Positions 9,038 through 18,350 of a stretch of 64,000 bases of DNA are shown one piece after another. A model generated the notes under the pieces. It saw only the letters and a program-made list of their open reading frames with translations, had not been told where the DNA came from and ran no database searches. Location: contig JAUIMI010000001.1 in the NCBI GenBank assembly GCA_030433255.1, positions 311,362 through 375,361 of the forward strand, written 5' to 3'. This stretch comes from a bacterium (GTDB lineage Bacteria > Patescibacteriota > Minisyncoccia > Phycocordibacterales > UBA1006). The position numbers and the translations under genes were made by a program. Numbering within the stretch: the stretch's first letter is position 1; each line of letters opens with the position of its first letter.

Positions 9038-10978
9038 ATGAAAAAGCGAGTTGGCGTGTGGATACGAGTTTCCACAAAATTACAGCAGAATTCAGATAGC
9101 CCTGAACATCATTTGCAAAAAGCAAAAATGTACGCAGAGCTAAAAGATTGGGATATTGTAGAAGAGTACCACTTAGAAGCTGTTAGCGGCAAAAGCGTGA
9201 TGGAACACCATGAAGCCCAGCGTATGATGCGAGATATTCAAAGTGGTCATATTGAAGGTTTGATCTTCTCGAAGATTGCCCGCTTTGCTCGTAACGTAAA
9301 AGAACTTTTGGAATTCTCAAAACACTTTCAAAAGTATAAGGGAGATATGATTTCCTTGAGTGAATCTATAGATACCAGTACACCTTCTGGTCGCTTTTTC
9401 TTCACCATGATTTCTGCTATGGGTCAGTGGGAACGTGAAAATATTGTTGAACGTATTAAATCATCTGTAGAAGTCAGAGCCAAAATGGGAAAAATAATGG
9501 GTGGTATTCCATTTGGGTATAAACGAGTAGGTAAAGATGATATGGCACTTGATGAACACGAAGCTCCAATTCGTAAAATGATGTTTGACTTGTTTTTGGA
9601 GCATGAACGGCATGCAACCGTAGCCAACATTCTTAACGAAAAAGGATATCGCACCAAACGAAAAAGTAAATTCACCGGTACTACGGTTAAACGACTATTA
9701 CAAGACCCAACTGCAAAAGGTATTAGACGTTCTCATTGCACTAAGATAGATGAAAATGGAAAAACCGTAATGAGGGATAAGTCGGAATGGTACATCCACG
9801 AAGCACCACGAATCGTATCAGACGAAGTATGGGACACCGTAAATGATATTATCCGTAAACAGGAAAAAGAAAAGGTACAACCATTAAATAAAAAGGTGCA
9901 TTTGTTTACAAGCTATTTATTTTGTGAATGCGGTGGCGGTATGTATGTGCCATCGTCAAACCCAAAATACACTTGTAAGAAGTGTAAACGCAAAATCCAT
10001 GTCGAAGATATTGAAGCGATCTTTAAAGAACAGCTCACCGAGTTCATCATTTCAGAAGAAGAAGTAAAACGTTACTTTAATGGCACACACACCATCATCA
10101 GAGAAAAGCAACAAGAGATTGAAAATGTGAAATCAGAAATACTAAAACTTGAAGATAAGATTGAAAAGCTATTTGAACTTCACGAAAAAGGGCAAATTGA
10201 GACTGATAGATTTAAAGATTTCTACGATAAACCAAACAACCAAGTGCAACAATTAAAACTCAGAATCCCACGAATTGAAGGCGAAATCTATGCCTTGAAA
10301 GACCAATTTAAATCAAGTGGATATATTATTGAAGAAGCTCGTTCGTTATATGAAAACTGGCATAAACTCACCAAAAGGCAAAAACGTAACATCATAGAAA
10401 TCATTACCGAAAAGATAGTGGTATCAGAGCAGGAAGTGAACATCACACTTAACTATATTCTTCCAAAGACACCATCTTTGAAAACGACTGCAAATGGTAC
10501 TCATGGACTATACTCAATGAGTACCATTTGCAGTTTTAAACTGAAACCAAAGTTACGCAAAATACCTAAAGCAAAACCCTTTACCCACTCACTTGGAGAG
10601 TACATCCGACACGAAAGGCTAAAAAAGCACATTTCACAAGAAGCATTAGCAAAACAGTTTGGTGTTAATGGAGTTGCTTTATCTATGTGGGAACTAAAAC
10701 GTAAGCCAGTACATCCAAAACGTTTTCAATCGGTGATTGATTTTCTTGATTACGTTCCTAAAAAGTCATCGAAGTTTGATAAGCTAGGAACACGCACTCA
10801 ATTATGGCGATTACAAAATGAGGTGAGCCTCCAAGAGTTTTCAGAATTGGTACATGTTCCCATAGAAGAAATTACACGAATAGAAACAGCTAGATATTGT
10901 AAAATTGACAGTAAGGTATCTGAAATCATCAACGCATTCATCAAACACTCTATTTCTTCCCACGAAGTGCTTTCATAA
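9038..10978 (+). CDS. large serine recombinase (resolvase/invertase N-terminal domain, recombinase domain and zinc ribbon) with a C-terminal HTH extension
   Basis: The N-terminal VGVWIRVSTKLQ carries the serine nucleophile context. A Cys4 zinc ribbon (CECGGG ... CKKCKRK) and coiled-coil segments follow. One or two XRE-like HTH motifs sit at the C-terminus (ISQEALAKQFGVNGVALSMWE). Confidence 0.85.
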   Translation: MKKRVGVWIRVSTKLQQNSDSPEHHLQKAKMYAELKDWDIVEEYHLEAVSGKSVMEHHEAQRMMRDIQSGHIEGLIFSKIARFARNVKELLEFSKHFQKYKGDMISLSESIDTSTPSGRFFFTMISAMGQWERENIVERIKSSVEVRAKMGKIMGGIPFGYKRVGKDDMALDEHEAPIRKMMFDLFLEHERHATVANILNEKGYRTKRKSKFTGTTVKRLLQDPTAKGIRRSHCTKIDENGKTVMRDKSEWYIHEAPRIVSDEVWDTVNDIIRKQEKEKVQPLNKKVHLFTSYLFCECGGGMYVPSSNPKYTCKKCKRKIHVEDIEAIFKEQLTEFIISEEEVKRYFNGTHTIIREKQQEIENVKSEILKLEDKIEKLFELHEKGQIETDRFKDFYDKPNNQVQQLKLRIPRIEGEIYALKDQFKSSGYIIEEARSLYENWHKLTKRQKRNIIEIITEKIVVSEQEVNITLNYILPKTPSLKTTANGTHGLYSMSTICSFKLKPKLRKIPKAKPFTHSLGEYIRHERLKKHISQEALAKQFGVNGVALSMWELKRKPVHPKRFQSVIDFLDYVPKKSSKFDKLGTRTQLWRLQNEVSLQEFSELVHVPIEEITRIETARYCKIDSKVSEIINAFIKHSISSHEVLS

Positions 10979-13900
10979 TAATATTAGTTATCGAAGCCTG
11001 CTTATTGGTGTCATTGTCTGTTTTGTAATCCACGTTTACACGGTAGCCACGTACACGCTTTACTTTGGTTTTTGGTTGAATTAAGGCATCAAGATACAGC
11101 AGTAATTCTTCAGATTTGAAGAAGTGGATTTTTAAGTGTTGTTTTTTAGAAATATTCTTTAAGGCTTGTTCCTTGATATTCTTAAGATGCTTTTCGTCCT
11201 CTGAAATCATATATACCAAAGAGTAGTTATCATCCAAGCACTTTTGAATATTTTGTACTTCATAATCTACTCTATTAGTTACTGAAATTTCAATGGCAAT
11301 ACGAATATCATCTTTTAACAGCGATACATCAACTTTGCCACCATTTAATGTTGAATCTTCAAGTGTTGCCTTAAACCCTCGCTGGAGAGCCATAGAACGA
11401 ATGTAATTTTGAATTGAACGATGCTGACGGACAATCTCCTGTTCTTCGGCTTGTTGTAAGTATTTTTCTTTACGAGCTTCTAAATCATCAGTCTTTTCTA
11501 AATTTTCAGTTTTTGGAGATGGTTTTGTTTCAGTAATGGGCTTTTCAACTTCACTTTTCTTATCTTCAACAATTACGGGTTCAACAGATTTTTCAATTTT
11601 GGGTTCTGTTGTTTTAGTTTTGAGTTTAGTCTTTTGGGGTGTTTGCTTAGGAAGCAAGGAAGCTAACAACTCATCAAGTTCTGCTTTAGATTTGCTGTAG
11701 CTTTTTCTTGTATGAGCAACAATACTATCTCTATTTACTTCGGCATTAGTTTCAGCTATAGACAATGGAAAGGTTGAAATATTAAAATCATCACTTGAAG
11801 AACCTACGCGCATAATGGCTTGTCCGATACCGAGACTCTGTAAATCATCTTGCTCAAAATATGAAAAACCAGACTCCAATCGTTTCGCATCGCTATCGCC
11901 TAGACGAAAACAAATCCGTGTTTTTGGATTTGATAAAACAGAGTTCAACAATTTTGCATCTTCAATTTGAGCCAATTCTTGATGAGCAATGGTAATACCT
12001 AAACCATATTTTCTAGCACCACTTAATATACGTTCAATACTTGGTGTGATGAAATTTTGGAACTCATCTAGGTATAACATAAAAGGTTTACGGCTATCCT
12101 TACCTTTAGATTGCCTTGCCAATGCCGATTGATTAAATTTTGCCAAGAACAATGAGCCTAATAAATAGGAATTCTGTTCTCCAATAAGGCCTTGCGATAA
12201 TTTCAGTAAAACAATTTTGTTGGTATTAAGGCAATTTGCTACATCAACACCTTTGTTTTGAGCTAACATATAGCGCACCAATTTTGGACGTAAAAATGTA
12301 TCTATACGAGTAAGTAGTGGTGCAATACCTTTTCGTACCAAAGGATATTCATTATTCCAATAGTAATGTAACGAAGGGTCGTTGACCGTTTTTAAGTATT
12401 GAACTCTATAAGGTTCTTCAAGTAGAAAACGCTTTAATTCAATAAGCGTTCCACCTTGAGTGCTCTCTAACATGGTATTTACAGCGTTTTGCAATACCGC
12501 AGTCATATTATCTCCCCAAGCAGTGGCATGACGTTTAAATGCCGAAACTAAATCTGATGAGAGTACAATTTTTTCAGCATCGGTATGCGCTTCTAATAGA
12601 TTGAATCCAATAGGGAAGTCAGCATCGGAAGGGTCTATTAAAACTACATCATTAATCCTGTTTTCTGGAATACGCTCTAAAATATCATCAATGATGTCGC
12701 CATGTGGATCGAACATAGCACAACCCATTCCATTTTCAATATCGGCAAGCATCATATTTGCCAGTAGAGTACTTTTACCAACGCCTGTGGCTCCTATTAC
12801 GTGTGTATGGGACAAACGTGTTTCATAGCTTAATTGAACAGGAATATCTTCTTGATTATGGGTATTGACTCCAATTAGGATGCCTTGATTGTCCTTTTGG
12901 TGTATACGTTTGGTTTTACCAACTTGCCATTGTAGTTTTTTAGAAACCACCGTTTTATTGGGATAGTGCAAAAAGGTATTCAGTTCCTTGGAATTCAATA
13001 CAAAGCCCAATCGGTTACTGAGGCGATGATGTAGATTGTATTTATGGAAATCATAATCATACCCTTCATTGGATAAAGGGATGAGTTTGTTATGCTGAGA
13101 GGTTGAAACTGCCGAAATACTTCGTGCTAACTCTTGTGCCAGATACTGACTCCTGTAATTGTCCTTGCCTTGAGTAGCTATACGCATCACCACTGAAAAT
13201 AGTGGATGTGCTATTTTTTCTTTGGCACACTGTGGCATTTCAGGAGCATCCGAAAAAAAAGAACCGCCAGCACCATCATTTACCGAATACATTGTATCCT
13301 TTGCTAAAGGAGAACTAATACCTTTAAACAGAATTTGAAAAACAGCAACATCATCATCCTGCAAAGCTTCCATAGTTGCGATGACTGAAGTTAATGGGTC
13401 TATGTTAAAAGAATCAGACGTAACTATGCTTCGCATATATTCACTATTAAGCCCAAAGTCTGCAATAGCGATATCATTTTTGTTTGAAAATCCAAAATCA
13501 TCAACTTCAATAGTTTTAATTATAACCATTGGAAAGTATGCCGATAATTGCGATTTCAATCTGCCTCTATCCTGTTTACTACATACCATTTGAATTTGGA
13601 TAGTATCTGAATTACCAATAATTTCAAAGGACAGTAAATGTTCTGTAAAGGATAGTAGATTGAGAAGTTCGATATTCCTGCTTGGATTGATTTCAGTCCC
13701 ATACGGAAAGGAAATTGAGAGACCAACAAGTTGAGGCTTTTCTGAAACTTCAAGAAAACGAGGTTTAACCTCTATTAAATCTTCTTCTGGTTCTTCTTCT
13801 TTAGGAGGAGCAAGTAATTTGGTTACTTGTTTGAATAATGAAGGTGCTCTACCATCATCTTGTATTGAAGGTCGGTTTTGGCTTACATGCTGAAAGGGAA

Positions 13901-14009
13901 CATAGGGAACCTCAATATCAATAGGAGTATCGAAATTGTAATACCCACGAAATCGATACTCCCAATTATAGAAATTAAGGGTTGCTTGTTCACTTCTTGT
14001 TAAACCCAT
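10950..14009 (-). CDS. FtsK/HerA/TrwB-superfamily P-loop ATPase (DUF87 or type IV coupling-protein-like) with an unknown 400-aa N-terminal domain, a K/E/P-rich linker and a C-terminal possible nuclease-like domain
   Basis: Walker A GATGVGKST is present, then FDPHGD, Walker B LYLDEFQNF and an AHQ motif. No TM helices are evident. The C-terminal roughly 120 aa show a D...E-I-S pattern weakly reminiscent of PD-(D/E)xK folds. Confidence 0.65.
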   Translation of the reverse strand: MGLTRSEQATLNFYNWEYRFRGYYNFDTPIDIEVPYVPFQHVSQNRPSIQDDGRAPSLFKQVTKLLAPPKEEEPEEDLIEVKPRFLEVSEKPQLVGLSISFPYGTEINPSRNIELLNLLSFTEHLLSFEIIGNSDTIQIQMVCSKQDRGRLKSQLSAYFPMVIIKTIEVDDFGFSNKNDIAIADFGLNSEYMRSIVTSDSFNIDPLTSVIATMEALQDDDVAVFQILFKGISSPLAKDTMYSVNDGAGGSFFSDAPEMPQCAKEKIAHPLFSVVMRIATQGKDNYRSQYLAQELARSISAVSTSQHNKLIPLSNEGYDYDFHKYNLHHRLSNRLGFVLNSKELNTFLHYPNKTVVSKKLQWQVGKTKRIHQKDNQGILIGVNTHNQEDIPVQLSYETRLSHTHVIGATGVGKSTLLANMMLADIENGMGCAMFDPHGDIIDDILERIPENRINDVVLIDPSDADFPIGFNLLEAHTDAEKIVLSSDLVSAFKRHATAWGDNMTAVLQNAVNTMLESTQGGTLIELKRFLLEEPYRVQYLKTVNDPSLHYYWNNEYPLVRKGIAPLLTRIDTFLRPKLVRYMLAQNKGVDVANCLNTNKIVLLKLSQGLIGEQNSYLLGSLFLAKFNQSALARQSKGKDSRKPFMLYLDEFQNFITPSIERILSGARKYGLGITIAHQELAQIEDAKLLNSVLSNPKTRICFRLGDSDAKRLESGFSYFEQDDLQSLGIGQAIMRVGSSSDDFNISTFPLSIAETNAEVNRDSIVAHTRKSYSKSKAELDELLASLLPKQTPQKTKLKTKTTEPKIEKSVEPVIVEDKKSEVEKPITETKPSPKTENLEKTDDLEARKEKYLQQAEEQEIVRQHRSIQNYIRSMALQRGFKATLEDSTLNGGKVDVSLLKDDIRIAIEISVTNRVDYEVQNIQKCLDDNYSLVYMISEDEKHLKNIKEQALKNISKKQHLKIHFFKSEELLLYLDALIQPKTKVKRVRGYRVNVDYKTDNDTNKQASITNIIMKALRGKK

Positions 14010-14014
14010 GTCAT

Positions 14015-14599
14015 CTATCTGATAAATACATCATTTAACATAGGCTTACGCTCTGCCTCACTGATAGAGCGGATTCCTTTATCGTTGGTAATGTCATCAA
14101 TGACTTTTAACACCGAAGATTGAGCGTAGCTCATAAACATACTGGCAGTATCTATCCTGTAATAGGTTACTGGATACAATTTTCTTGCAAGCCAACCACC
14201 TATAAATGGAATTTTAGCAACCAATATCTTGCCAATGGAATCTTTATACAATAACCACCAAGACACGAAAAAGCCATGACCAAACTTGGCTCCACAAATA
14301 TCATATTGGTAATCTTTCCATATAGCTCGTAAATAGATGCGAGAATGAGACATCGCTCCTCCTTCTTTAATGAATTTTTCTTTGATATTGATTTTTGTAA
14401 TGCCGTGAGATTCCAGTTCGGTTTTTAATAAGGCATAAAACTCTTTAGGTGAGTATTCAAAGTTATCAATAAGGGTACTCCACCGTGAGTGATAGTTTTT
14501 TCTGGTTTTACTGAAAATAAATCTTAAAACTAGAAAAGCAACAATTCCAGCTAGGACATACATCCCATATTTTGTTAGATAAAAAGTGAATTCATTCAT
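14015..14599 (-). CDS. hypothetical membrane-anchored protein
   Basis: It has a single N-terminal TM helix. It lies 5 bp upstream of the ATPase gene and 26 bp downstream of the AlaX-like gene on the same strand. Confidence 0.45.
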   Translation of the reverse strand: MNEFTFYLTKYGMYVLAGIVAFLVLRFIFSKTRKNYHSRWSTLIDNFEYSPKEFYALLKTELESHGITKINIKEKFIKEGGAMSHSRIYLRAIWKDYQYDICGAKFGHGFFVSWWLLYKDSIGKILVAKIPFIGGWLARKLYPVTYYRIDTASMFMSYAQSSVLKVIDDITNDKGIRSISEAERKPMLNDVFIR

Positions 14600-14625: not shown

Positions 14626-15534
14626 TTATATTAATTGTGTCTTTATTGATAAGGTTTTTTCCTCTTCATTATAGAAGCAGTCTACAGTAACTTTAGGTAA
14701 TTGGGACAAAGAGCTAACATGAGTTCCTCCACAAGGGATAGTAACAAATCTATCATTTATTTTTACTTTAAAATTTCGTTTAGCCCCTAATTGAATATTA
14801 TCTCCGAACATACTTACTTTAGAAGATTTATTGATATCTATAAGTTTGTTTAAACTACTCGACAACTCAATAGAAAACTTTTTAAAATCTAAGCTTTTGA
14901 ATTTAACTAAGTCAAACCCTTTCTTTGATAAACTTTTACCAATACGATATACATCAGTAGCATAATAAGTGTAGATTTTTGATTTCTGTATTGCTAAGGC
15001 ATCAAAATTTGGATTATTAAGATCATCTTTAAAATCCACCTCTTTTTTCCAAAATGAAGCTAGTTCTTCATTAAGAATTATTGACATCAAATGAACGGTA
15101 GTGTGTGTTTTAGAGAGATTTTCTCTAAATTTTTCGTCTACATATAACTCGCAATCTAAATCAATTAATGAGTTTTCATTTAATGAGTTTAAATCGTCAA
15201 TAATAAAATGCCCTATCATGGCAATATATATACCTTCTTGAAGCCCTTTATAAAAAGCACTTTTACTTTTGGGAAATACATTCTTTCTAGTATTTATGTC
15301 TATAATTATAATACGAGAGTCTTCAACCTTATATGTTTTTCCTTGAATGACTATTTTTCCTTTATCTCCTGGTTGATCTCCACCTAGATAATCTTCAGGG
15401 TGAAATGGACTCATGTCTGTACAAACATATAGACCCTCAGGAAAAGAAAAGACACCTTTTATTTTAGCTTTAGAATAGGTTGAATTTTCATAATATAATG
15501 CTTGGCTAGTTGTTGTTCTATTTGAGATTTTCAT
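14626..15534 (-). CDS. AlaX-M-type alanyl-tRNA synthetase-like trans-editing domain protein
   Basis: The N-domain signature is ALYYENS ... FSFPEGLYVCTDMSPFHPEDYLGGDQPGDKG, of the LYY ... FYP.GGGQP.D.G type. The editing-site zinc motifs HTTVHLM (HxxxH) and CGGTHV (CxxxH) are separated by about 115 aa, as in AlaRS/AlaX editing domains. Confidence 0.7.
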   Translation of the reverse strand: MKISNRTTTSQALYYENSTYSKAKIKGVFSFPEGLYVCTDMSPFHPEDYLGGDQPGDKGKIVIQGKTYKVEDSRIIIIDINTRKNVFPKSKSAFYKGLQEGIYIAMIGHFIIDDLNSLNENSLIDLDCELYVDEKFRENLSKTHTTVHLMSIILNEELASFWKKEVDFKDDLNNPNFDALAIQKSKIYTYYATDVYRIGKSLSKKGFDLVKFKSLDFKKFSIELSSSLNKLIDINKSSKVSMFGDNIQLGAKRNFKVKINDRFVTIPCGGTHVSSLSQLPKVTVDCFYNEEEKTLSIKTQLI

Positions 15535-16553
15535 AAGTTAATTATATAAGGATTAGTACTTTTTACAAACTGCATCTTCACTTTTGACCTAAGAGTCACT
15601 ATTCTTTGAAGCCAACGATCGTGTCCATCAAATTTTGCGGGGAACAATGATCTACCATGGACTGCTTTATCATTATCTATAATTAATAAATCGCCTGGTT
15701 TAAGAGCTATCTTTATAGCGCTTTCATGTATAAGTAATTTTAATTCTTTAAATGCTGTTTCTGCTTTTTTTGTTAAGAACTTGGTAGTATATAATGGATC
15801 ATACCTCAAGGTAAGTGTCTTTTTAAATTCTAATATTGACACCTTAACTTCTTTTTGAACACCATGGGCTTCGTCTGAAGAAATAATAAAATTGGGCATT
15901 AGTAATTGTTCAATTGTTTGTGGTTTTAACTTATAAAAGTCTATTTTAGAAATTAACGTATAAGCTTCTGGTGTTCCTCTTAAACATAATAATAGTATAT
16001 GATTGCACCTAAGGTTGTGAAATGCATCTTCTGTATGCCAATCTAAATAGACTCTCCCCGTTCCTAATTGTTTATTTTGGTCTTTTATTTTGGGAAAAAG
16101 ATTTTGTATTACAAGTCCTTTTCTTTGCGAAAAATAGCCATAAGGATATCCTATTAAATTAGCTATAGCAATAAGAATGATTTCACTGTAAGATGTCATT
16201 TTTAAATCTAAATTTCCAGTTGGCCCAAGATGTTGGTCTAGCAATAAATTTTCAATTAAAAAAGCACCTATAGTATTAGATTTATTTGCAAACTCAACAA
16301 TAGAATCTTCTAATTCATTAGGAAGCACATCTGAAACATCATCACTCGCCCTAGAAATATTGAAGTAATTTTTTTGATTAAACTTTTTTTCCGCTTTGAT
16401 GGAAACTTTATTTTTTATGAACTTATTTTCATCAGATGACAGTCTATAAAAAGATTCAAATTTTGTTAGCTGAATTTTTTCATGAATTTTTCTTAAGTCT
16501 TTCACTATATCTCTTTTTTTAGTAAAATTAGATTTATAACTATTTGTAACCAA
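15531..16553 (-). CDS. Fe(II)/2-oxoglutarate-dependent oxygenase of the TauD/TfdA/clavaminate-synthase-like family (putative amino-acid hydroxylase)
   Basis: WHTEDAFH (an HxE/D facial-triad motif) is followed by LLLCLR. The C-terminal GDLLIIDNDKAVHGRS ... RWLQR supplies the second His and an Arg, as in TauD/CAS-like enzymes. A 4-bp ATGA overlap links it to the downstream AlaX-like gene. Confidence 0.6.
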   Translation of the reverse strand: MVTNSYKSNFTKKRDIVKDLRKIHEKIQLTKFESFYRLSSDENKFIKNKVSIKAEKKFNQKNYFNISRASDDVSDVLPNELEDSIVEFANKSNTIGAFLIENLLLDQHLGPTGNLDLKMTSYSEIILIAIANLIGYPYGYFSQRKGLVIQNLFPKIKDQNKQLGTGRVYLDWHTEDAFHNLRCNHILLLCLRGTPEAYTLISKIDFYKLKPQTIEQLLMPNFIISSDEAHGVQKEVKVSILEFKKTLTLRYDPLYTTKFLTKKAETAFKELKLLIHESAIKIALKPGDLLIIDNDKAVHGRSLFPAKFDGHDRWLQRIVTLRSKVKMQFVKSTNPYIINL

Positions 16554-16630: not shown

Positions 16631-17320
16631 ATGATGAACATCAGATTATTAATATTCGTAATCTTTCTTGCTCTTGGAATTGGATGCCATGCGGGCTCTT
16701 ATGCCTTCAATAATGAAAAACTTTTAGAACTATTATCGCAGGCTGAAAAACTGGAACAGAACAAGGAGTATTCAACCGCATTGAATGTATATAATGAGGC
16801 TCTGAAAATTGCATCCAAAGAAGAGCGTATTGAAGACGCCAGTTACATTTACAATAAAATAGGATTAGTCTATTACAGACAAAAGCAATACGAAACAGCA
16901 AAATCCAATTTTAAGACCAGCATCCTAAAATCCAATATTTCTAATAGTGCTGCAGATTCTTATTTCAATCTCTCGCTGATTTACAGAAAACAAAACTCAA
17001 AGGATAGCCTTCTATGGTCATTGAATAGGTCTTTGGAAATTTATGGTGGTTTGGAAGATAGCAACAGTAAATTTTCAACCTATTCCAAAGCTGGAATTCT
17101 CTATAAACAGCTGGGTATGTATGACAAAGCCATTGAATATTTGCTTTTGGCTTATGACGGATTAGATAATAAAGAAAATGAGTCCCAAAAAACTTCGGTT
17201 TGCTACACCATTGGTGAGACGCAACGCCTTTTGGGAAATTTAGACATTGCTAAAACTTATCTAAAAGAAAGCCTTCAGATTAGAAATAGACTTAATGATT
17301 CTCTTAAAACGTCTTCATAG
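16631..17320 (+). CDS. TPR-repeat lipoprotein
   Basis: A lipobox (LALGIGC) is present. Several 34-aa TPR-like repeats with an A/Y/L pattern follow. Confidence 0.6.
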   Translation: MMNIRLLIFVIFLALGIGCHAGSYAFNNEKLLELLSQAEKLEQNKEYSTALNVYNEALKIASKEERIEDASYIYNKIGLVYYRQKQYETAKSNFKTSILKSNISNSAADSYFNLSLIYRKQNSKDSLLWSLNRSLEIYGGLEDSNSKFSTYSKAGILYKQLGMYDKAIEYLLLAYDGLDNKENESQKTSVCYTIGETQRLLGNLDIAKTYLKESLQIRNRLNDSLKTSS

Positions 17321-17622
17321 TTAGCAGTGTTTTCGGCTATGGCTAATGCTTGACCACTATGAACTATATCATTATCCTTTACGAGAAGATTGCTAATTTC
17401 ACCACTCATTCTTGCATATTCCTTTTGAGGTGGAATTGTAGTAGTTATTATTACCTGTGACTGAATAATATCAGGATACTTAATATACCATGTTGCTAAA
17501 AACAATAAAAATATAACTACAAAAATTACCGTTATCCCCCATTTTAAAAAAACATTTGGTTGCTTTTCTAAAATTTCTCTAATTTGCTCACTGTGATTAT
17601 CGATTTCGTCAATTTTCATCAT
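17275..17622 (-). pseudogene. N-terminal fragment of an HlyD-family bacteriocin or peptide secretion accessory protein
   Basis: A TM helix is followed by IIQSQVIITTT-PPQKEYARMSGEISNLLVKDNDIVHSGQALA, typical of the first 110 aa of LcnD/ComB-type HlyD proteins. The ORF ends after 115 aa and overlaps the convergent TPR gene. Confidence 0.5.
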
Positions 17623-17876
17623 TAACTTCCTAATTCTAATTGATCTTTAACTAACTTATAATAGACTCCTTTATTATTTACTAACTTTTGATGATCACCT
17701 TCCTCAATTATTTCTCCTTTTTCTAAACAGCTCCCTAAATAATCTTTAATCTTAGCCCATGTACCATCACACCCATGACAATCAGACCAGTCACCTCCTT
17801 GAACTTTTTCAAGTACATCACTAGTGTTTACGTTTTCTGCTTTTGCTTTAAAAGCTTCAAGACTTAATCTCTTCAT
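17622..17876 (-). CDS. double-glycine-leader peptide-like ORF fused in frame to the C-terminal tail of a bacteriocin-type ABC exporter (remnant)
   Basis: The N-terminus MKRLSLEAFKAKAENVNTSDVLEKVQGG resembles a GG-type leader. The Cys-rich DWSDCHGCDGTWAKIKDYLGSC follows. The last 34 aa (LEKGEIIEEGDHQKLVNNKGVYYKLVKDQLELGS) match the conserved C-terminus of C39-peptidase ABC exporters. Confidence 0.45.
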   Translation of the reverse strand: MKRLSLEAFKAKAENVNTSDVLEKVQGGDWSDCHGCDGTWAKIKDYLGSCLEKGEIIEEGDHQKLVNNKGVYYKLVKDQLELGS

Positions 17877-17962
17877 AATAAAAAGTTTTATATAGTTTAC
17901 TTGCCTACTCTTTTAGCTTTTCGGCTCCCGCTATTATTATTTTCTAAATAAACGAAAAATAT

Positions 17963-17979
17963 TGGTCATTATTGACCAA
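17963..17979. promoter_or_regulatory. palindromic operator-like site TTGGTCA-tta-TTGACCAA overlapping a putative -35 element
   Basis: This is a near-perfect inverted repeat in the divergent intergenic region between the GG-leader ORF and the XRE regulator gene. TTGACC is followed about 15-17 nt later by TATATT. Confidence 0.4.
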
Positions 17980-18044
17980 ATAATTAAAAATTTATATTGT
18001 TAACTGTTTTTTGAGTTTCTCATAGAGTTTTTTCAGGTAATAAC

Positions 18045-18350
18045 ATGTTATGTTTTATCTTGCAATTGCTATTAATCATGTTTCCTATGAACTCATTACC
18101 CTTTGAGATTCTCTTTGAAGTTCTCGGCAATCGTATTCGTGATCTTCGACAATCAAAAAAGCTTTCACAAATTGAAGTAGCAGCAAGATGTGGACTGGAC
18201 GTTTCTAACTATAATAAAATTGAATTTAACAAAAGGCCACCATCACTACGTACGCTATTTAAAATTGCCATTGCTCTAGATGAACCTATCTCTAATTTCT
18301 TTAATGATGAAGTGTTTCTCTCATTTATCGAAGAACATGTGAAAGCTTAA
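18045..18350 (+). CDS. XRE-family helix-turn-helix transcriptional regulator
   Basis: HTH_3 signature LSQIEVAARCGLDVSNYNKIE is present. The likely true start is an internal Met at about 18087 (MNSLPFEIL). Confidence 0.7.
   Translation: MLCFILQLLLIMFPMNSLPFEILFEVLGNRIRDLRQSKKLSQIEVAARCGLDVSNYNKIEFNKRPPSLRTLFKIAIALDEPISNFFNDEVFLSFIEEHVKA

What the first reader, a model, noticed from the sequence alone, without database searches (positions are those of the whole stretch)
17275..18044. Decayed double-glycine-leader peptide export locus: leader-like ORF fused to an ABC-exporter C-terminus, followed by an HlyD N-terminal fragment
ORF 17622..17876 begins with a plausible GG-type leader (MKRLSLEAFKAKAENVNTSDVLEKVQGG). 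A Cys-rich segment follows that also resembles the start of a C39 peptidase domain (..DC.G ... AKIKDYLG). The ORF ends with a 34-aa stretch that closely matches the conserved C-terminus of bacteriocin ABC exporters (GEIIEEGDHQKLVNNKGVYYKLV). The next ORF is only the first 115 aa of an HlyD/LcnD-type accessory protein. The simplest reading is an AB-type peptide-export operon that suffered a large in-frame internal deletion. It is also possible that the surviving 84-aa product is still secreted or active.
Basis: partly seen in the sequence, partly recalled or inferred. Interest (0 to 1): 0.55.

Follow-up and report, generated by a model that had tools for sequence, protein, structure and literature searches.

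The report
Deletion-wrecked peptide (RiPP) export locus
This is the dead remnant of a six-gene bacterial operon for making and exporting a modified peptide: two deletions left a peptide gene fused to the last 34 codons of its exporter plus a stub of the exporter's partner, which is ordinary gene decay.

Summary
ORF 17622..17876(-) is a chimera. Residues 1-47 are the double-glycine leader and conserved core start of a Bacteroidota precursor-peptide family. Residues 51-84 are the last 34 residues of a C39-peptidase ABC exporter. ORF 17275..17622(-) holds the first 105 residues of the cognate HlyD adaptor.

In nine intact relatives the order is always precursor, 393-aa protein, 146-aa protein, TPR protein, C39-ABC, HlyD. 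A deletion of about 4.7 kb therefore removed three genes and about 700 ABC codons. A second breakpoint joins HlyD codon ~105 head-on to a truncated, unrelated TPR gene, with 9-13 nt that either parent could have contributed.

The "C39-like" Cys-rich segment is precursor core, not peptidase. The remnants carry no internal stops, and their dN/dS (~0.12) is no higher than between intact relatives, so the decay is recent. An independent assembly reproduces both junctions.

Side findings:
- The Rfam DUF805b RNA motif lies 25 nt upstream of the chimeric ORF, and 22-27 nt upstream of the precursor gene in eight related loci.
- The lost 393-aa gene has the alpha-KG-HExxH oxygenase fold with an HQxxH motif. 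The parent system is probably an uncharacterised RiPP cluster.

The locus itself is an ordinary relic.

The parts
18087..18350 (+). Divergent XRE-family HTH regulator gene. The mechanical ORF runs 18045..18350. The 87-aa gene call starts at 18087.
   Evidence: Pfam HTH_3 at E 3e-14. The gene call in the Logan contig L004 converts to 18087..18350. A divergent HTH gene occupies the same position in intact loci L005 and L014. Those HTH proteins are 26-35% identical to the window's.
17962..17979 (.). Perfect palindrome TTGGTCA-ATAA-TGACCAA between the HTH gene and the precursor gene. It is a candidate operator and was not tested.
   Evidence: Read directly from the sequence. No function was tested.
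17902..17934 (-). DUF805b RNA motif (Rfam RF02914), 25 nt upstream of the chimeric ORF's ATG.
   Evidence: cmscan gives 45.4 bits against a gathering score of 35.6, E 2e-12 to 2e-9 depending on search size, covering model positions 1-35 of 35. The same motif lies 22-27 nt upstream of the precursor gene in eight related loci.
17622..17876 (-). Chimeric 84-aa ORF: precursor-peptide 5' part fused in frame to the 3' end of the C39-ABC exporter gene.
   Evidence: Its exact-sequence cluster has a single member, and no other sequence in the 5.8-billion-protein database covers both halves.
17793..17876 (-). Double-glycine leader, residues 1-28: MKRLSLEAFKAKAENVNTSDVLEKVQGG.
   Evidence: Q26, G27 and G28 are invariant in 15 of 15 family members. 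A profile search finds 155 cluster representatives at E <= 1e-3.
17736..17792 (-). Conserved start of the core peptide, residues 29-47: DWSDCHGCDGTWAKIKDYL. It includes the family's invariant Cys-His.
   Evidence: Nucleotide homology to the L001 precursor block runs to 17735.
17727..17735 (-). Junction 1. Nine nucleotides, GGGAGCTGT (Gly-Ser-Cys), of uncertain parentage between the precursor block and the ABC block. About 4.7 kb is missing here.
   Evidence: The precursor block ends at 17735 and the ABC block starts at 17726-17729. In L001 the two blocks are 4,694 bp apart, at 10142 and 14837.
17625..17726 (-). Last 34 codons of the C39-peptidase ABC exporter: LEKGEIIEEGDHQKLVNNKGVYYKLVKDQLELGS. 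The stop codon follows at 17622-17624.
   Evidence: 85% amino-acid identity to the tails in L013 and L022, and 76% to L001. 81% nucleotide identity to L013. NCBIfam ABC models align at their C-terminal ends.
17305..17622 (-). First ~105 codons of the HlyD-family adaptor: cytoplasmic N-terminus, transmembrane helix and the start of the lipoyl domain.
   Evidence: tblastn at E 2.5e-46 to L001 HlyD residues 1-105. 67-76% identity to eight intact HlyD genes. Pfam Biotin_lipoyl_2 at 1.6e-4.
17302..17314 (.). Junction 2. Both the HlyD frame (minus strand) and the TPR frame (plus strand) are still recognisable across 9-13 nt, AGACGTTTTAAGA on the minus strand. This is possible microhomology.
   Evidence: HlyD homology runs to 17305/17306, or to 17302 when compared with L005. 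TPR homology runs to 17314.
17275..17304 (-). Non-native tail of the HlyD ORF: the codons from R107 to I115 plus the stop, read from the antisense of the TPR gene.
   Evidence: The alignment with intact HlyD proteins ends here.
16631..17320 (+). Truncated, unrelated TPR gene convergent with the HlyD stub. About 228 native codons remain, and the stop codon comes from HlyD-derived sequence.
   Evidence: The closest relative, P0022, is 310 aa and is followed by histidine-kinase and response-regulator genes in L012. Homology covers P0022 residues 3-227, mapping to 16643..17314. No histidine-kinase or response-regulator homologue is present in the window. The gene is not homologous to the cassette's own TPR gene.

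Best explanation
The locus is the non-functional relic of a six-gene Bacteroidota peptide cassette. The ancestral order was: DUF805b 5' element, double-glycine-leader precursor, 393-aa HExxH-fold (HQxxH) oxygenase-like enzyme, 146-aa protein, TPR protein, C39-peptidase ABC exporter (PCAT), HlyD adaptor. Some relatives also carry a divergent XRE regulator.

One deletion of about 4.7 kb ran from about codon 48-50 of the precursor gene to about codon 700 of the ABC gene. By chance it joined the two frames and created a unique 84-aa chimeric ORF. A second breakpoint joined HlyD codon ~105 to codon ~228 of a convergent, unrelated TPR (sensor-kinase-type) gene. It removed the rest of both genes and whatever lay between them, probably through 9-13 nt of microhomology.

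Shown here: the homologies, the collinear architecture of intact relatives, the breakpoint positions, and the absence of the missing genes from the 64-kb window.

Inferred: that the events were deletions rather than other rearrangements, that they are recent, and that the remnants have no function. The upstream region is intact, so the remnants may still be transcribed. Even so, the peptide would lack its modifying enzyme, leader peptidase/exporter and adaptor.
For: - Chimera. The only database hits to the 84-aa ORF are short double-glycine-leader peptides matching residues 1-~50, or ABC C-terminal fragments matching residues ~51-84. None spans both halves.
- Mapping to the Gaetbulibacter sp. 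M240 cassette. Precursor residues 1-52 map to 17876..17721, ABC residues 700-734 to 17729..17625, and HlyD residues 1-105 to 17619..17305.
- Conserved architecture. The order precursor, 393, 146, TPR, C39-ABC, HlyD is collinear in L001, L005/L017, L011, L018, L019, L021, L022, L024 and L026. The full-length ABC matches TIGR03796 and TIGR01193 and contains Pfam Peptidase_C39. The full-length HlyD matches TIGR01843.
- Junction 1. Nucleotide BLAST shows two homology blocks abutting at 17735/17729 in the window. The same blocks are 4,694 bp apart in L001.
- Missing genes. There are no 393-aa, 146-aa, cassette-TPR, C39/TMD or distal HlyD homologues anywhere in the window.
- Junction 2. The TPR relatives continue beyond the junction, and in L012 they are followed by histidine-kinase and response-regulator genes. 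Those genes are absent from the window.
- Recency. The remnants have no stops or frameshifts. Their dN/dS against intact relatives is 0.11-0.13, compared with 0.21 between two intact relatives.
- Independent assembly. A Logan contig from run ERR3428547 is 100% identical to the window across both junctions and was seen in two samples.
Against: - No direct ancestor or sister genome with an intact cassette at this position was found. The closest relatives are about 77-84% identical in nucleotides, so the breakpoints are known only to within a few bases.
- The rest of the source genome could not be searched. The missing segments could lie elsewhere, through inversion or transposition, instead of being deleted. 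A second PCAT or modifying enzyme could also exist in trans.
- One relative, L002, naturally lacks an adjacent ABC/HlyD pair. Trans export is therefore possible in this family.
- The promoter region, the DUF805b motif and the ORF are intact, so expression is not excluded.
Confidence: 0.85

Rival explanations
1. The chimeric ORF is a functional new gene. It would be transcribed from the retained promoter and DUF805b leader. Its double-glycine leader would be recognised by a C39-ABC exporter encoded elsewhere in the genome, and a peptide with a new C-terminal half derived from the ABC tail would be secreted.
For: - The upstream region, including DUF805b, is 84% identical in nucleotides to L001, and the ORF is open.
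- The leader and the conserved Cys-His core are intact.
- One relative, L002, has the precursor and enzyme genes without an adjacent ABC/HlyD pair, so trans export may occur in this family.
Against: - The fusion is unique, in a one-member cluster.
- An in-frame join is expected by chance in one deletion out of three.
- The cognate modifying enzyme, the 146-aa protein, the TPR protein, the PCAT and the HlyD adaptor are absent from the window.
- The family's hypervariable C-terminal tail is replaced by a cytoplasmic nucleotide-binding-domain helix.
- dN/dS cannot separate selection from recency here.
Confidence: 0.06
2. One or both junctions are assembly artefacts, that is, chimeric joins in a metagenome-assembled contig. 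The real genome would carry an intact cassette.
For: - The relatives come largely from MAGs and metagenomes.
- No read-level data could be inspected.
Against: - The Logan assembly of run ERR3428547 gives a 6-kb contig identical to the window through both junctions, recorded in two samples.
- The joined sequences share at most 9-13 nt, whereas assemblers mis-join at long repeats.
- Junction 1 preserves the reading frame, and the flanks on both sides are collinear with the cassette ends.
Confidence: 0.04
3. The breakpoints arise from inversion, transposition or mobile-element recombination rather than simple deletion. The missing pieces would survive elsewhere in the genome, still broken.
For: - The locus lies in an island-like region with a large serine recombinase (9038..10978) and a TrwB/TraG-like ATPase (10950..14009).
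- Junction 2 joins two convergent, unrelated genes.
Against: - No reciprocal fragments occur within 17 kb to the left or 46 kb to the right.
- Deletion is the simpler explanation for both junctions.
- Either way, the cassette is inactivated.
Confidence: 0.08

Closest known systems
Peptidase-containing ABC transporter (PCAT) plus HlyD-type accessory protein systems for double-glycine-leader peptides (ComA/ComB, LagD, LcnC/LcnD; NCBIfam TIGR01193 and TIGR03796 with TIGR03794/TIGR01843)
   Same: - Intact relatives encode a C39-ABC that matches TIGR03796 at 7e-129 and TIGR01193 at 1e-118.
- They also encode a HlyD adaptor that matches TIGR01843 at 1e-30. It lies directly downstream of a short peptide gene whose leader ends in an invariant QGG.
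- The window keeps the tail of the ABC gene and the head of the HlyD gene in the native order, with near-abutting stop and start codons.
   Different: - In the window the C39 domain, the transmembrane domain and essentially the whole nucleotide-binding domain are deleted.
- Three quarters of the HlyD gene is also gone.
- The precursors match no curated double-glycine-leader HMM.
Alpha-ketoglutarate-dependent HExxH enzymes in RiPP clusters (ChlBH, PDB 8s5f; SjiH, PDB 22ob; BpmH; PflC/PosC; NCBIfam TIGR04267, InterPro IPR026337)
   Same: - The 393-aa gene that follows the precursor in every intact relative gives a confident AF2 model (pLDDT 92.6).
- The only significant PDB matches of that model are SjiH and the ChlBH HExxH domain, at Foldseek probability 1.0 and E 6e-8 to 7e-7.
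- Four of 31 family members weakly match TIGR04267.
- These enzymes act on leader-bearing precursor peptides (PMC12636437).
   Different: - Sequence identity is only 9-13%.
- The invariant motif is HQxxH, not HExxH.
- Pfam and NCBIfam give no hit for P0025.
- The chemistry is unknown.
- The gene is absent from the window.
DUF805b RNA motif (Rfam RF02914, clan CL00115), a candidate cis-regulatory RNA
   Same: The window hit scores 45.4 bits against a gathering score of 35.6, across the full model, immediately 5' of the ORF.
   Different: - Here and in eight related loci the downstream gene is a short double-glycine-leader precursor.
- No DUF805-domain gene was seen in these loci.
- The motif's function is unknown.
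Pseudogene remnants and chimeric ORFs made by intra-operon deletion, which is general bacterial gene decay
   Same: - Two breakpoints lie inside coding sequences.
- The remnants have lost defining domains.
- The fusion ORF has no homologue of the same architecture.
   Different: - The remnants carry no further stops or frameshifts.
- Their dN/dS is as low as that of functional relatives, which indicates very recent decay.

Membership tests
Double-glycine-leader precursor peptide (PCAT substrate) | An N-terminal leader of about 15-30 aa ending in Gly-Gly (or GA/GS) directly before the core peptide. | tested here: met
   Residues 1-28 end in VQGG. Q26, G27 and G28 are invariant in 15 of 15 homologues and recur across family representatives.
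Double-glycine-leader precursor peptide (PCAT substrate) | Conserved hydrophobic positions at -4, -7, -12 and -15 relative to the cleavage site. | tested here: inconclusive
   Read from the sequence: V at -4 and L at -7 fit the pattern, N at -12 and E at -15 do not, and V is at -13. The consensus itself is recalled from the literature and was not checked with a tool.
Double-glycine-leader precursor peptide (PCAT substrate) | Genetic linkage to a C39-peptidase ABC exporter. | tested here: met
   The feature is met in nine intact relatives. In the window only the last 34 codons of that exporter remain.
Double-glycine-leader precursor peptide (PCAT substrate) | A match to a curated double-glycine-leader or bacteriocin-leader HMM (for example TIGR01847 or TIGR04149). 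| tested here: not met
   The window peptide gives no NCBIfam or Pfam hit to such a model at E <= 1-10. The only related signal is a weak XyeA triceptide hit at E 0.01 in 5 of 15 members.
Peptidase-containing ABC transporter (TIGR01193 / TIGR03796) | An N-terminal C39 cysteine-peptidase domain. | tested here: not met
   The domain is absent from the window. The Cys-rich segment of the ORF is not C39-like (hhalign probability 0.08%).
Peptidase-containing ABC transporter (TIGR01193 / TIGR03796) | A six-helix ABC transmembrane domain and a nucleotide-binding domain. | tested here: not met
   Only residues equivalent to 700-734 of 734 are present. This is a fragment, not a transporter.
HlyD / membrane-fusion adaptor (TIGR01843) | An N-terminal transmembrane anchor plus lipoyl, coiled-coil hairpin and beta-barrel domains. 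| tested here: not met
   Only residues 1-105 of about 427 remain, covering the anchor and the start of the lipoyl domain. The HlyD_3 barrel region, residues 287-385 in L001, is missing.
DUF805b RNA (Rfam RF02914) | A covariance-model score at or above Rfam's gathering threshold over the full model. | tested here: met
   The hit scores 45.4 bits against 35.6, covering model positions 1-35 of 35 at 17902..17934(-).
Alpha-KG-HExxH RiPP biosynthetic cluster | An HExxH-fold oxygenase gene next to the precursor gene. | tested here: not met
   The gene is deleted from the window. It is present in all relatives long enough to show it, with an HQxxH motif and a Foldseek match at probability 1.0.
Alpha-KG-HExxH RiPP biosynthetic cluster | Fe(II)/alpha-KG-dependent modification of the precursor peptide. 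| not testable with these tools
   This needs biochemistry on an intact cassette, for example the one in Gaetbulibacter sp. M240.

The most novel reading that the evidence does not exclude
The relic points to an undescribed Bacteroidota RiPP class with three features:
- Double-glycine-leader precursors carry an invariant Cys-His 4-6 residues after the cleavage site and a hypervariable tail.
- They are processed by an HQxxH variant of the alpha-KG-HExxH oxygenase fold, with a 146-aa protein and a TPR protein as partners.
- They are preceded by the orphan DUF805b RNA motif, 22-27 nt upstream of the start codon.

On this reading DUF805b would be the 5'-UTR control element of these unannotated peptide genes. 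The window's chimeric ORF still carries the motif and may still be expressed.
Probability: 0.45. Interest if true: 0.55.

Novelty: new member of a known kind. Interest (0 to 1): 0.3.

Why it matters
The locus itself matters little. It is a clean, well-dated example of how a peptide-production operon dies: two deletions, one of which created an in-frame chimeric ORF that an annotator would call a hypothetical protein.

Its value is as a pointer:
- It led to a conserved but unannotated cassette in marine and soil Bacteroidota. The key enzyme of that cassette is a remote HQxxH relative of the recently discovered alpha-KG-HExxH RiPP oxygenases.
- It gives the orphan Rfam motif DUF805b a consistent genetic context, directly upstream of short double-glycine-leader peptide genes.

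Both leads can be tested in cultured strains such as Gaetbulibacter sp. M240.

Tried and rejected
- C39 origin of the Cys-rich segment. hhalign of the precursor alignment against the N-terminal 150 aa of the C39-ABC gave probability 0.08%. Rejected.
- The window's TPR gene as an inverted copy of the cassette's TPR gene. tblastn gave no similarity, and its relatives belong to a different family linked to a histidine kinase and response regulator. Rejected.
- Relocated copies of the missing genes in the window. None were found.
- The source organism and a closer intact relative. The genome-contig scan found only 4 loci and not the source genome. Exact-sequence cluster look-ups carried no names. 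The metagenome scan gave 10 more loci, none above about 84% nucleotide identity.
- Bacteroidetes -7 promoter box (TAnnTTTG) upstream of the ORF. There was no exact match in the window. Inconclusive.
- Inverted-repeat scan of the upstream regions. No element was shared between loci at the tool's thresholds.
- Literature. No paper was found on SjiH or on this precursor family. DUF805b is not mentioned in the held main text of Weinberg et al. 2017, and no supplements are held.
- Relaxed-selection test. dN/dS of the remnants is not elevated. This dates the decay as recent but cannot show function.
Full report
**1. What is in the sequence**

The two ORFs exist as described: 17622..17876(-), 84 aa, and 17275..17622(-), 115 aa, sharing one base in a TAATG overlap. 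A plus-strand TPR ORF (16631..17320) overlaps the 3' end of the second ORF. A divergent XRE-type HTH gene lies upstream, at 18045/18087..18350.

**2. The 84-aa ORF is a chimera of two genes**

A search of 5.8 billion proteins returned only two kinds of hit besides the ORF itself.

- P0002-P0014 and P0018 are peptides of 54-68 aa. They share the leader M..RLSLEAFKAKAENV.T.EVLEKVQGG and the following DWSDCHGC.GTWAKIK.Y, then diverge completely. They cover query residues 1 to about 50.
- P0015-P0017, P0019 and P0020 are contig-edge fragments of ABC transporters ending ...IIVLEKGKIIEEG.H.ELV.NKGVYYKLVKDQLELGS/N. They cover residues about 51-84.

No sequence spans both halves, and the exact-sequence cluster has one member. 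NCBIfam ABC exporter models (MsbA, HlyB, bacteriocin_ABC, NHLM ABC1/2) all align to residues 50-80 at the extreme C-terminal end of each model.

The stretch is the conserved core of the peptide family. A profile comparison with the N-terminus of the cognate C39-ABC gives probability 0.08%.

**3. The ancestral operon**

The contig of Gaetbulibacter sp. M240 (L001) encodes, in order:

| Gene | Length | Evidence |
|---|---|---|
| Precursor | 63 aa | |
| Unknown protein | 393 aa | no Pfam or NCBIfam hit |
| Unknown protein | 146 aa | no Pfam or NCBIfam hit |
| TPR protein | 281 aa | |
| C39-ABC | 734 aa | Peptidase_C39 + ABC_membrane + ABC_tran; TIGR03796 at 7e-129, TIGR01193 at 1e-118 |
| HlyD | 427 aa | TIGR01843 at 1e-30 |

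The same collinear six-gene order is found in L005/L017, L011, L018, L019, L021, L022, L024 and L026. L005 and L014 also have a divergent HTH gene, as the window does. L002 has the first four genes but no adjacent ABC/HlyD pair.

Mapping the Gaetbulibacter proteins onto the window gives three matches:

| Query | Window coordinates | Identity | E-value |
|---|---|---|---|
| Precursor 1-52 | 17876..17721 | 79% | 7e-27 |
| ABC 700-734 | 17729..17625 | 74% | 7e-12 |
| HlyD 1-105 | 17619..17305 | 69.5% | 2.5e-46 |

The 393-aa protein, the 146-aa protein, the cassette TPR protein, the rest of the ABC exporter and the rest of HlyD have no match anywhere in the 64 kb.

**4. Junction 1**

At nucleotide level the upstream-plus-precursor block aligns to L001 up to window 17735. 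The ABC-tail-plus-HlyD block starts at 17726-17729, depending on the relative. In L001 the same two blocks are 4,694 bp apart (codon views).

Nine nucleotides (GGGAGCTGT, Gly-Ser-Cys) cannot be assigned. They most likely belong to the hypervariable tail of the original precursor. The join is in frame, which one deletion in three would be by chance.

**5. Junction 2**

HlyD homology ends at V105-L106, at 17305-17310. Compared with L005 (DILR against DVLR) it may run to 17302. The remaining codons of that ORF are read from the antisense of the TPR gene.

The TPR gene is itself truncated. Its closest relative, P0022 (60% identity), is 310 aa. It continues ...LKTSYAYNNLANLYK... where the window reads ...LKTSS-stop. 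In L012 it is followed by histidine-kinase and response-regulator genes. Homology covers P0022 residues 3-227, mapping to 16643..17314, and no kinase or regulator homologue is in the window.

The two homologies therefore overlap by 9-13 nt (AGACGTTTTAAGA on the minus strand). This fits microhomology-mediated joining, but that is an inference from relatives that are only 55-75% identical.

**6. Age and reality of the lesions**

The remnants (34 + 105 codons) have no stops or frameshifts. Nei-Gojobori dN/dS of the window's HlyD stub against intact L013 and L001 is 0.11-0.12. For the ABC tail against L001 it is 0.13. Between the two intact HlyD genes it is 0.21. Almost all divergence therefore accrued under purifying selection, which means the deletions are recent.

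A Logan contig assembled independently from run ERR3428547 is identical to the window over 3,977 bp. It includes both junctions and was recorded in two samples. This argues against an assembly artefact. Read-level confirmation was not possible.

**7. Functional reading**

The window keeps the regulator gene, the upstream region and an open chimeric ORF. It has lost the putative modifying enzyme, two accessory proteins, the leader peptidase/exporter and most of the adaptor.

The HlyD stub would at most yield a 115-aa membrane-anchored fragment, since the transmembrane helix WGITVIFVVIFLLFLATWYI is retained. I conclude the locus is a recent, non-functional relic (confidence 0.85).

Three residual possibilities remain:
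- Export of the chimeric peptide in trans by another PCAT, about 6%.
- Rearrangement rather than deletion, about 8%. The locus lies next to a large serine recombinase and a TrwB/TraG-like ATPase.
- Mis-assembly, about 4%.

**8. What the parent system is**

The precursor family is sizeable. A profile search of 1.84 billion representatives finds 155 clusters at E <= 1e-3 and 41 at E <= 1e-10. Almost all are 40-70 aa, with the leader and an invariant Cys-His (usually CHG) 4-6 residues after GG. No curated leader HMM recognises them.

The adjacent 393-aa protein belongs to a family widespread in Bacteroidota, including Pedobacter, Tenacibaculum, Chryseobacterium, Sphingobacterium, Aquimarina, Maribacter, Zobellia and Flavobacterium. 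Its invariant residues are H236-Q237-x-x-H240, H283, E311 and R315.

Four of 31 members weakly match TIGR04267, the alpha-KG-HExxH peptide beta-hydroxylase model. An AlphaFold model with pLDDT 92.6 matches only SjiH (22ob) and the ChlBH HExxH domain (8s5f) in the PDB. These matches have probability 1.0 and E 6e-8 to 7e-7.

Alpha-KG-HExxH enzymes are a recently recognised class of RiPP-tailoring oxygenases (PMC12636437). The parent cassette is therefore most likely a RiPP cluster with an HQxxH variant of that enzyme. Its chemistry is unknown, and I found no paper describing it.

**9. An RNA motif noticed on the way**

The sequence 17902..17934(-), 25 nt upstream of the chimeric ORF, is a full-length match to Rfam RF02914, DUF805b. 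It scores 45.4 bits against a gathering score of 35.6, and it is the only such hit in the window.

The motif also lies 22-27 nt upstream of the precursor start codon in L001, L002, L010, L018 (once before each of two precursor copies), L019, L021, L024 and L025. Every DUF805b hit in about 250 kb of fetched loci is in that position. No DUF805-domain gene was seen there.

L005/L017 has a recognisable but sub-threshold copy with a compensatory change in the outer stem pair (A-U to G-C). The other precursor-bearing loci (L011, L014-L016, L020, L022, L023 and L026) have no hit at the gathering threshold. The motif's function is unknown, and whether it acts as RNA or as a DNA site was not tested.

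**10. Verdict**

- The breakpoint lies in the precursor gene, and three further genes were lost.
- There is no C39 remnant.
- A second breakpoint truncates a convergent TPR gene.

As a feature of this window it is ordinary gene decay, so interest is 0.3. The uncharacterised parent cassette and its DUF805b leader are the parts worth following up.

Noticed in passing
window 17902..17934 (-). Also L001 9946-9978, L002 9946-9978, L010 3682-3714, L018 7936-7971 and 9577-9609, L019 86-121, L021 3338-3373, L024 7939-7970, L025 552-583.: The Rfam DUF805b RNA motif (RF02914) lies 22-27 nt upstream of the start codon of double-glycine-leader precursor genes, in the window and in eight related loci. No DUF805-domain gene is nearby. 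This may redefine the genetic context of an orphan cis-regulatory motif.
   Followed up: partly
L001 10277-11458 (P0025), and the equivalent gene in L002, L005, L011, L018, L019, L021, L022, L024 and L026.: A 393-aa protein family with no Pfam or NCBIfam assignment is widespread in Bacteroidota and has an invariant HQxxH motif. Its AF2 model (pLDDT 92.6) matches only the alpha-KG-HExxH oxygenases SjiH and ChlBH in the PDB. It is always encoded next to precursors that carry an invariant Cys-His motif. This looks like an uncharacterised RiPP class.
   Followed up: partly
window 17962..17979: A perfect palindrome, TTGGTCA-ATAA-TGACCAA, lies in the 210-nt intergenic region between the divergent HTH regulator gene and the precursor gene. 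It is a candidate operator.
   Followed up: no
window 14626..16553 (-): A gene pair lies beside the relic on the same strand. One gene (340 aa) encodes a VioC/GntD/clavaminate-synthase-like Fe(II)/alpha-KG amino-acid beta-hydroxylase homologue (NCBIfam GntD at 2e-53). The other (302 aa) encodes a protein with weak AlaX/AlaRS editing-domain similarity. They may form a small amino-acid-modification module.
   Followed up: no
window 9038..14599: Island-like context. It contains a large serine recombinase with a C-terminal HTH (646 aa, 9038..10978 +). Its 3' end overlaps a 1019-aa TrwB/TraG/HerA-like P-loop ATPase gene (10950..14009 -). A 194-aa protein of unknown function (14015..14599 -) follows. 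This may be relevant to how the rearrangements arose.
   Followed up: partly
window 16631..17320 (+) and L012 4065-6758: The TPR ORF is the N-terminal 228 residues of a protein family that, in a relative, is followed by histidine-kinase and LuxR-type response-regulator genes. A second system, probably a TPR sensor-kinase two-component system, was destroyed by the same breakpoint.
   Followed up: partly
L018 8001-8123 and 9640-9735: One related locus carries two precursor genes, each with its own DUF805b motif. The second lies between the 393-aa and 146-aa genes.
   Followed up: no
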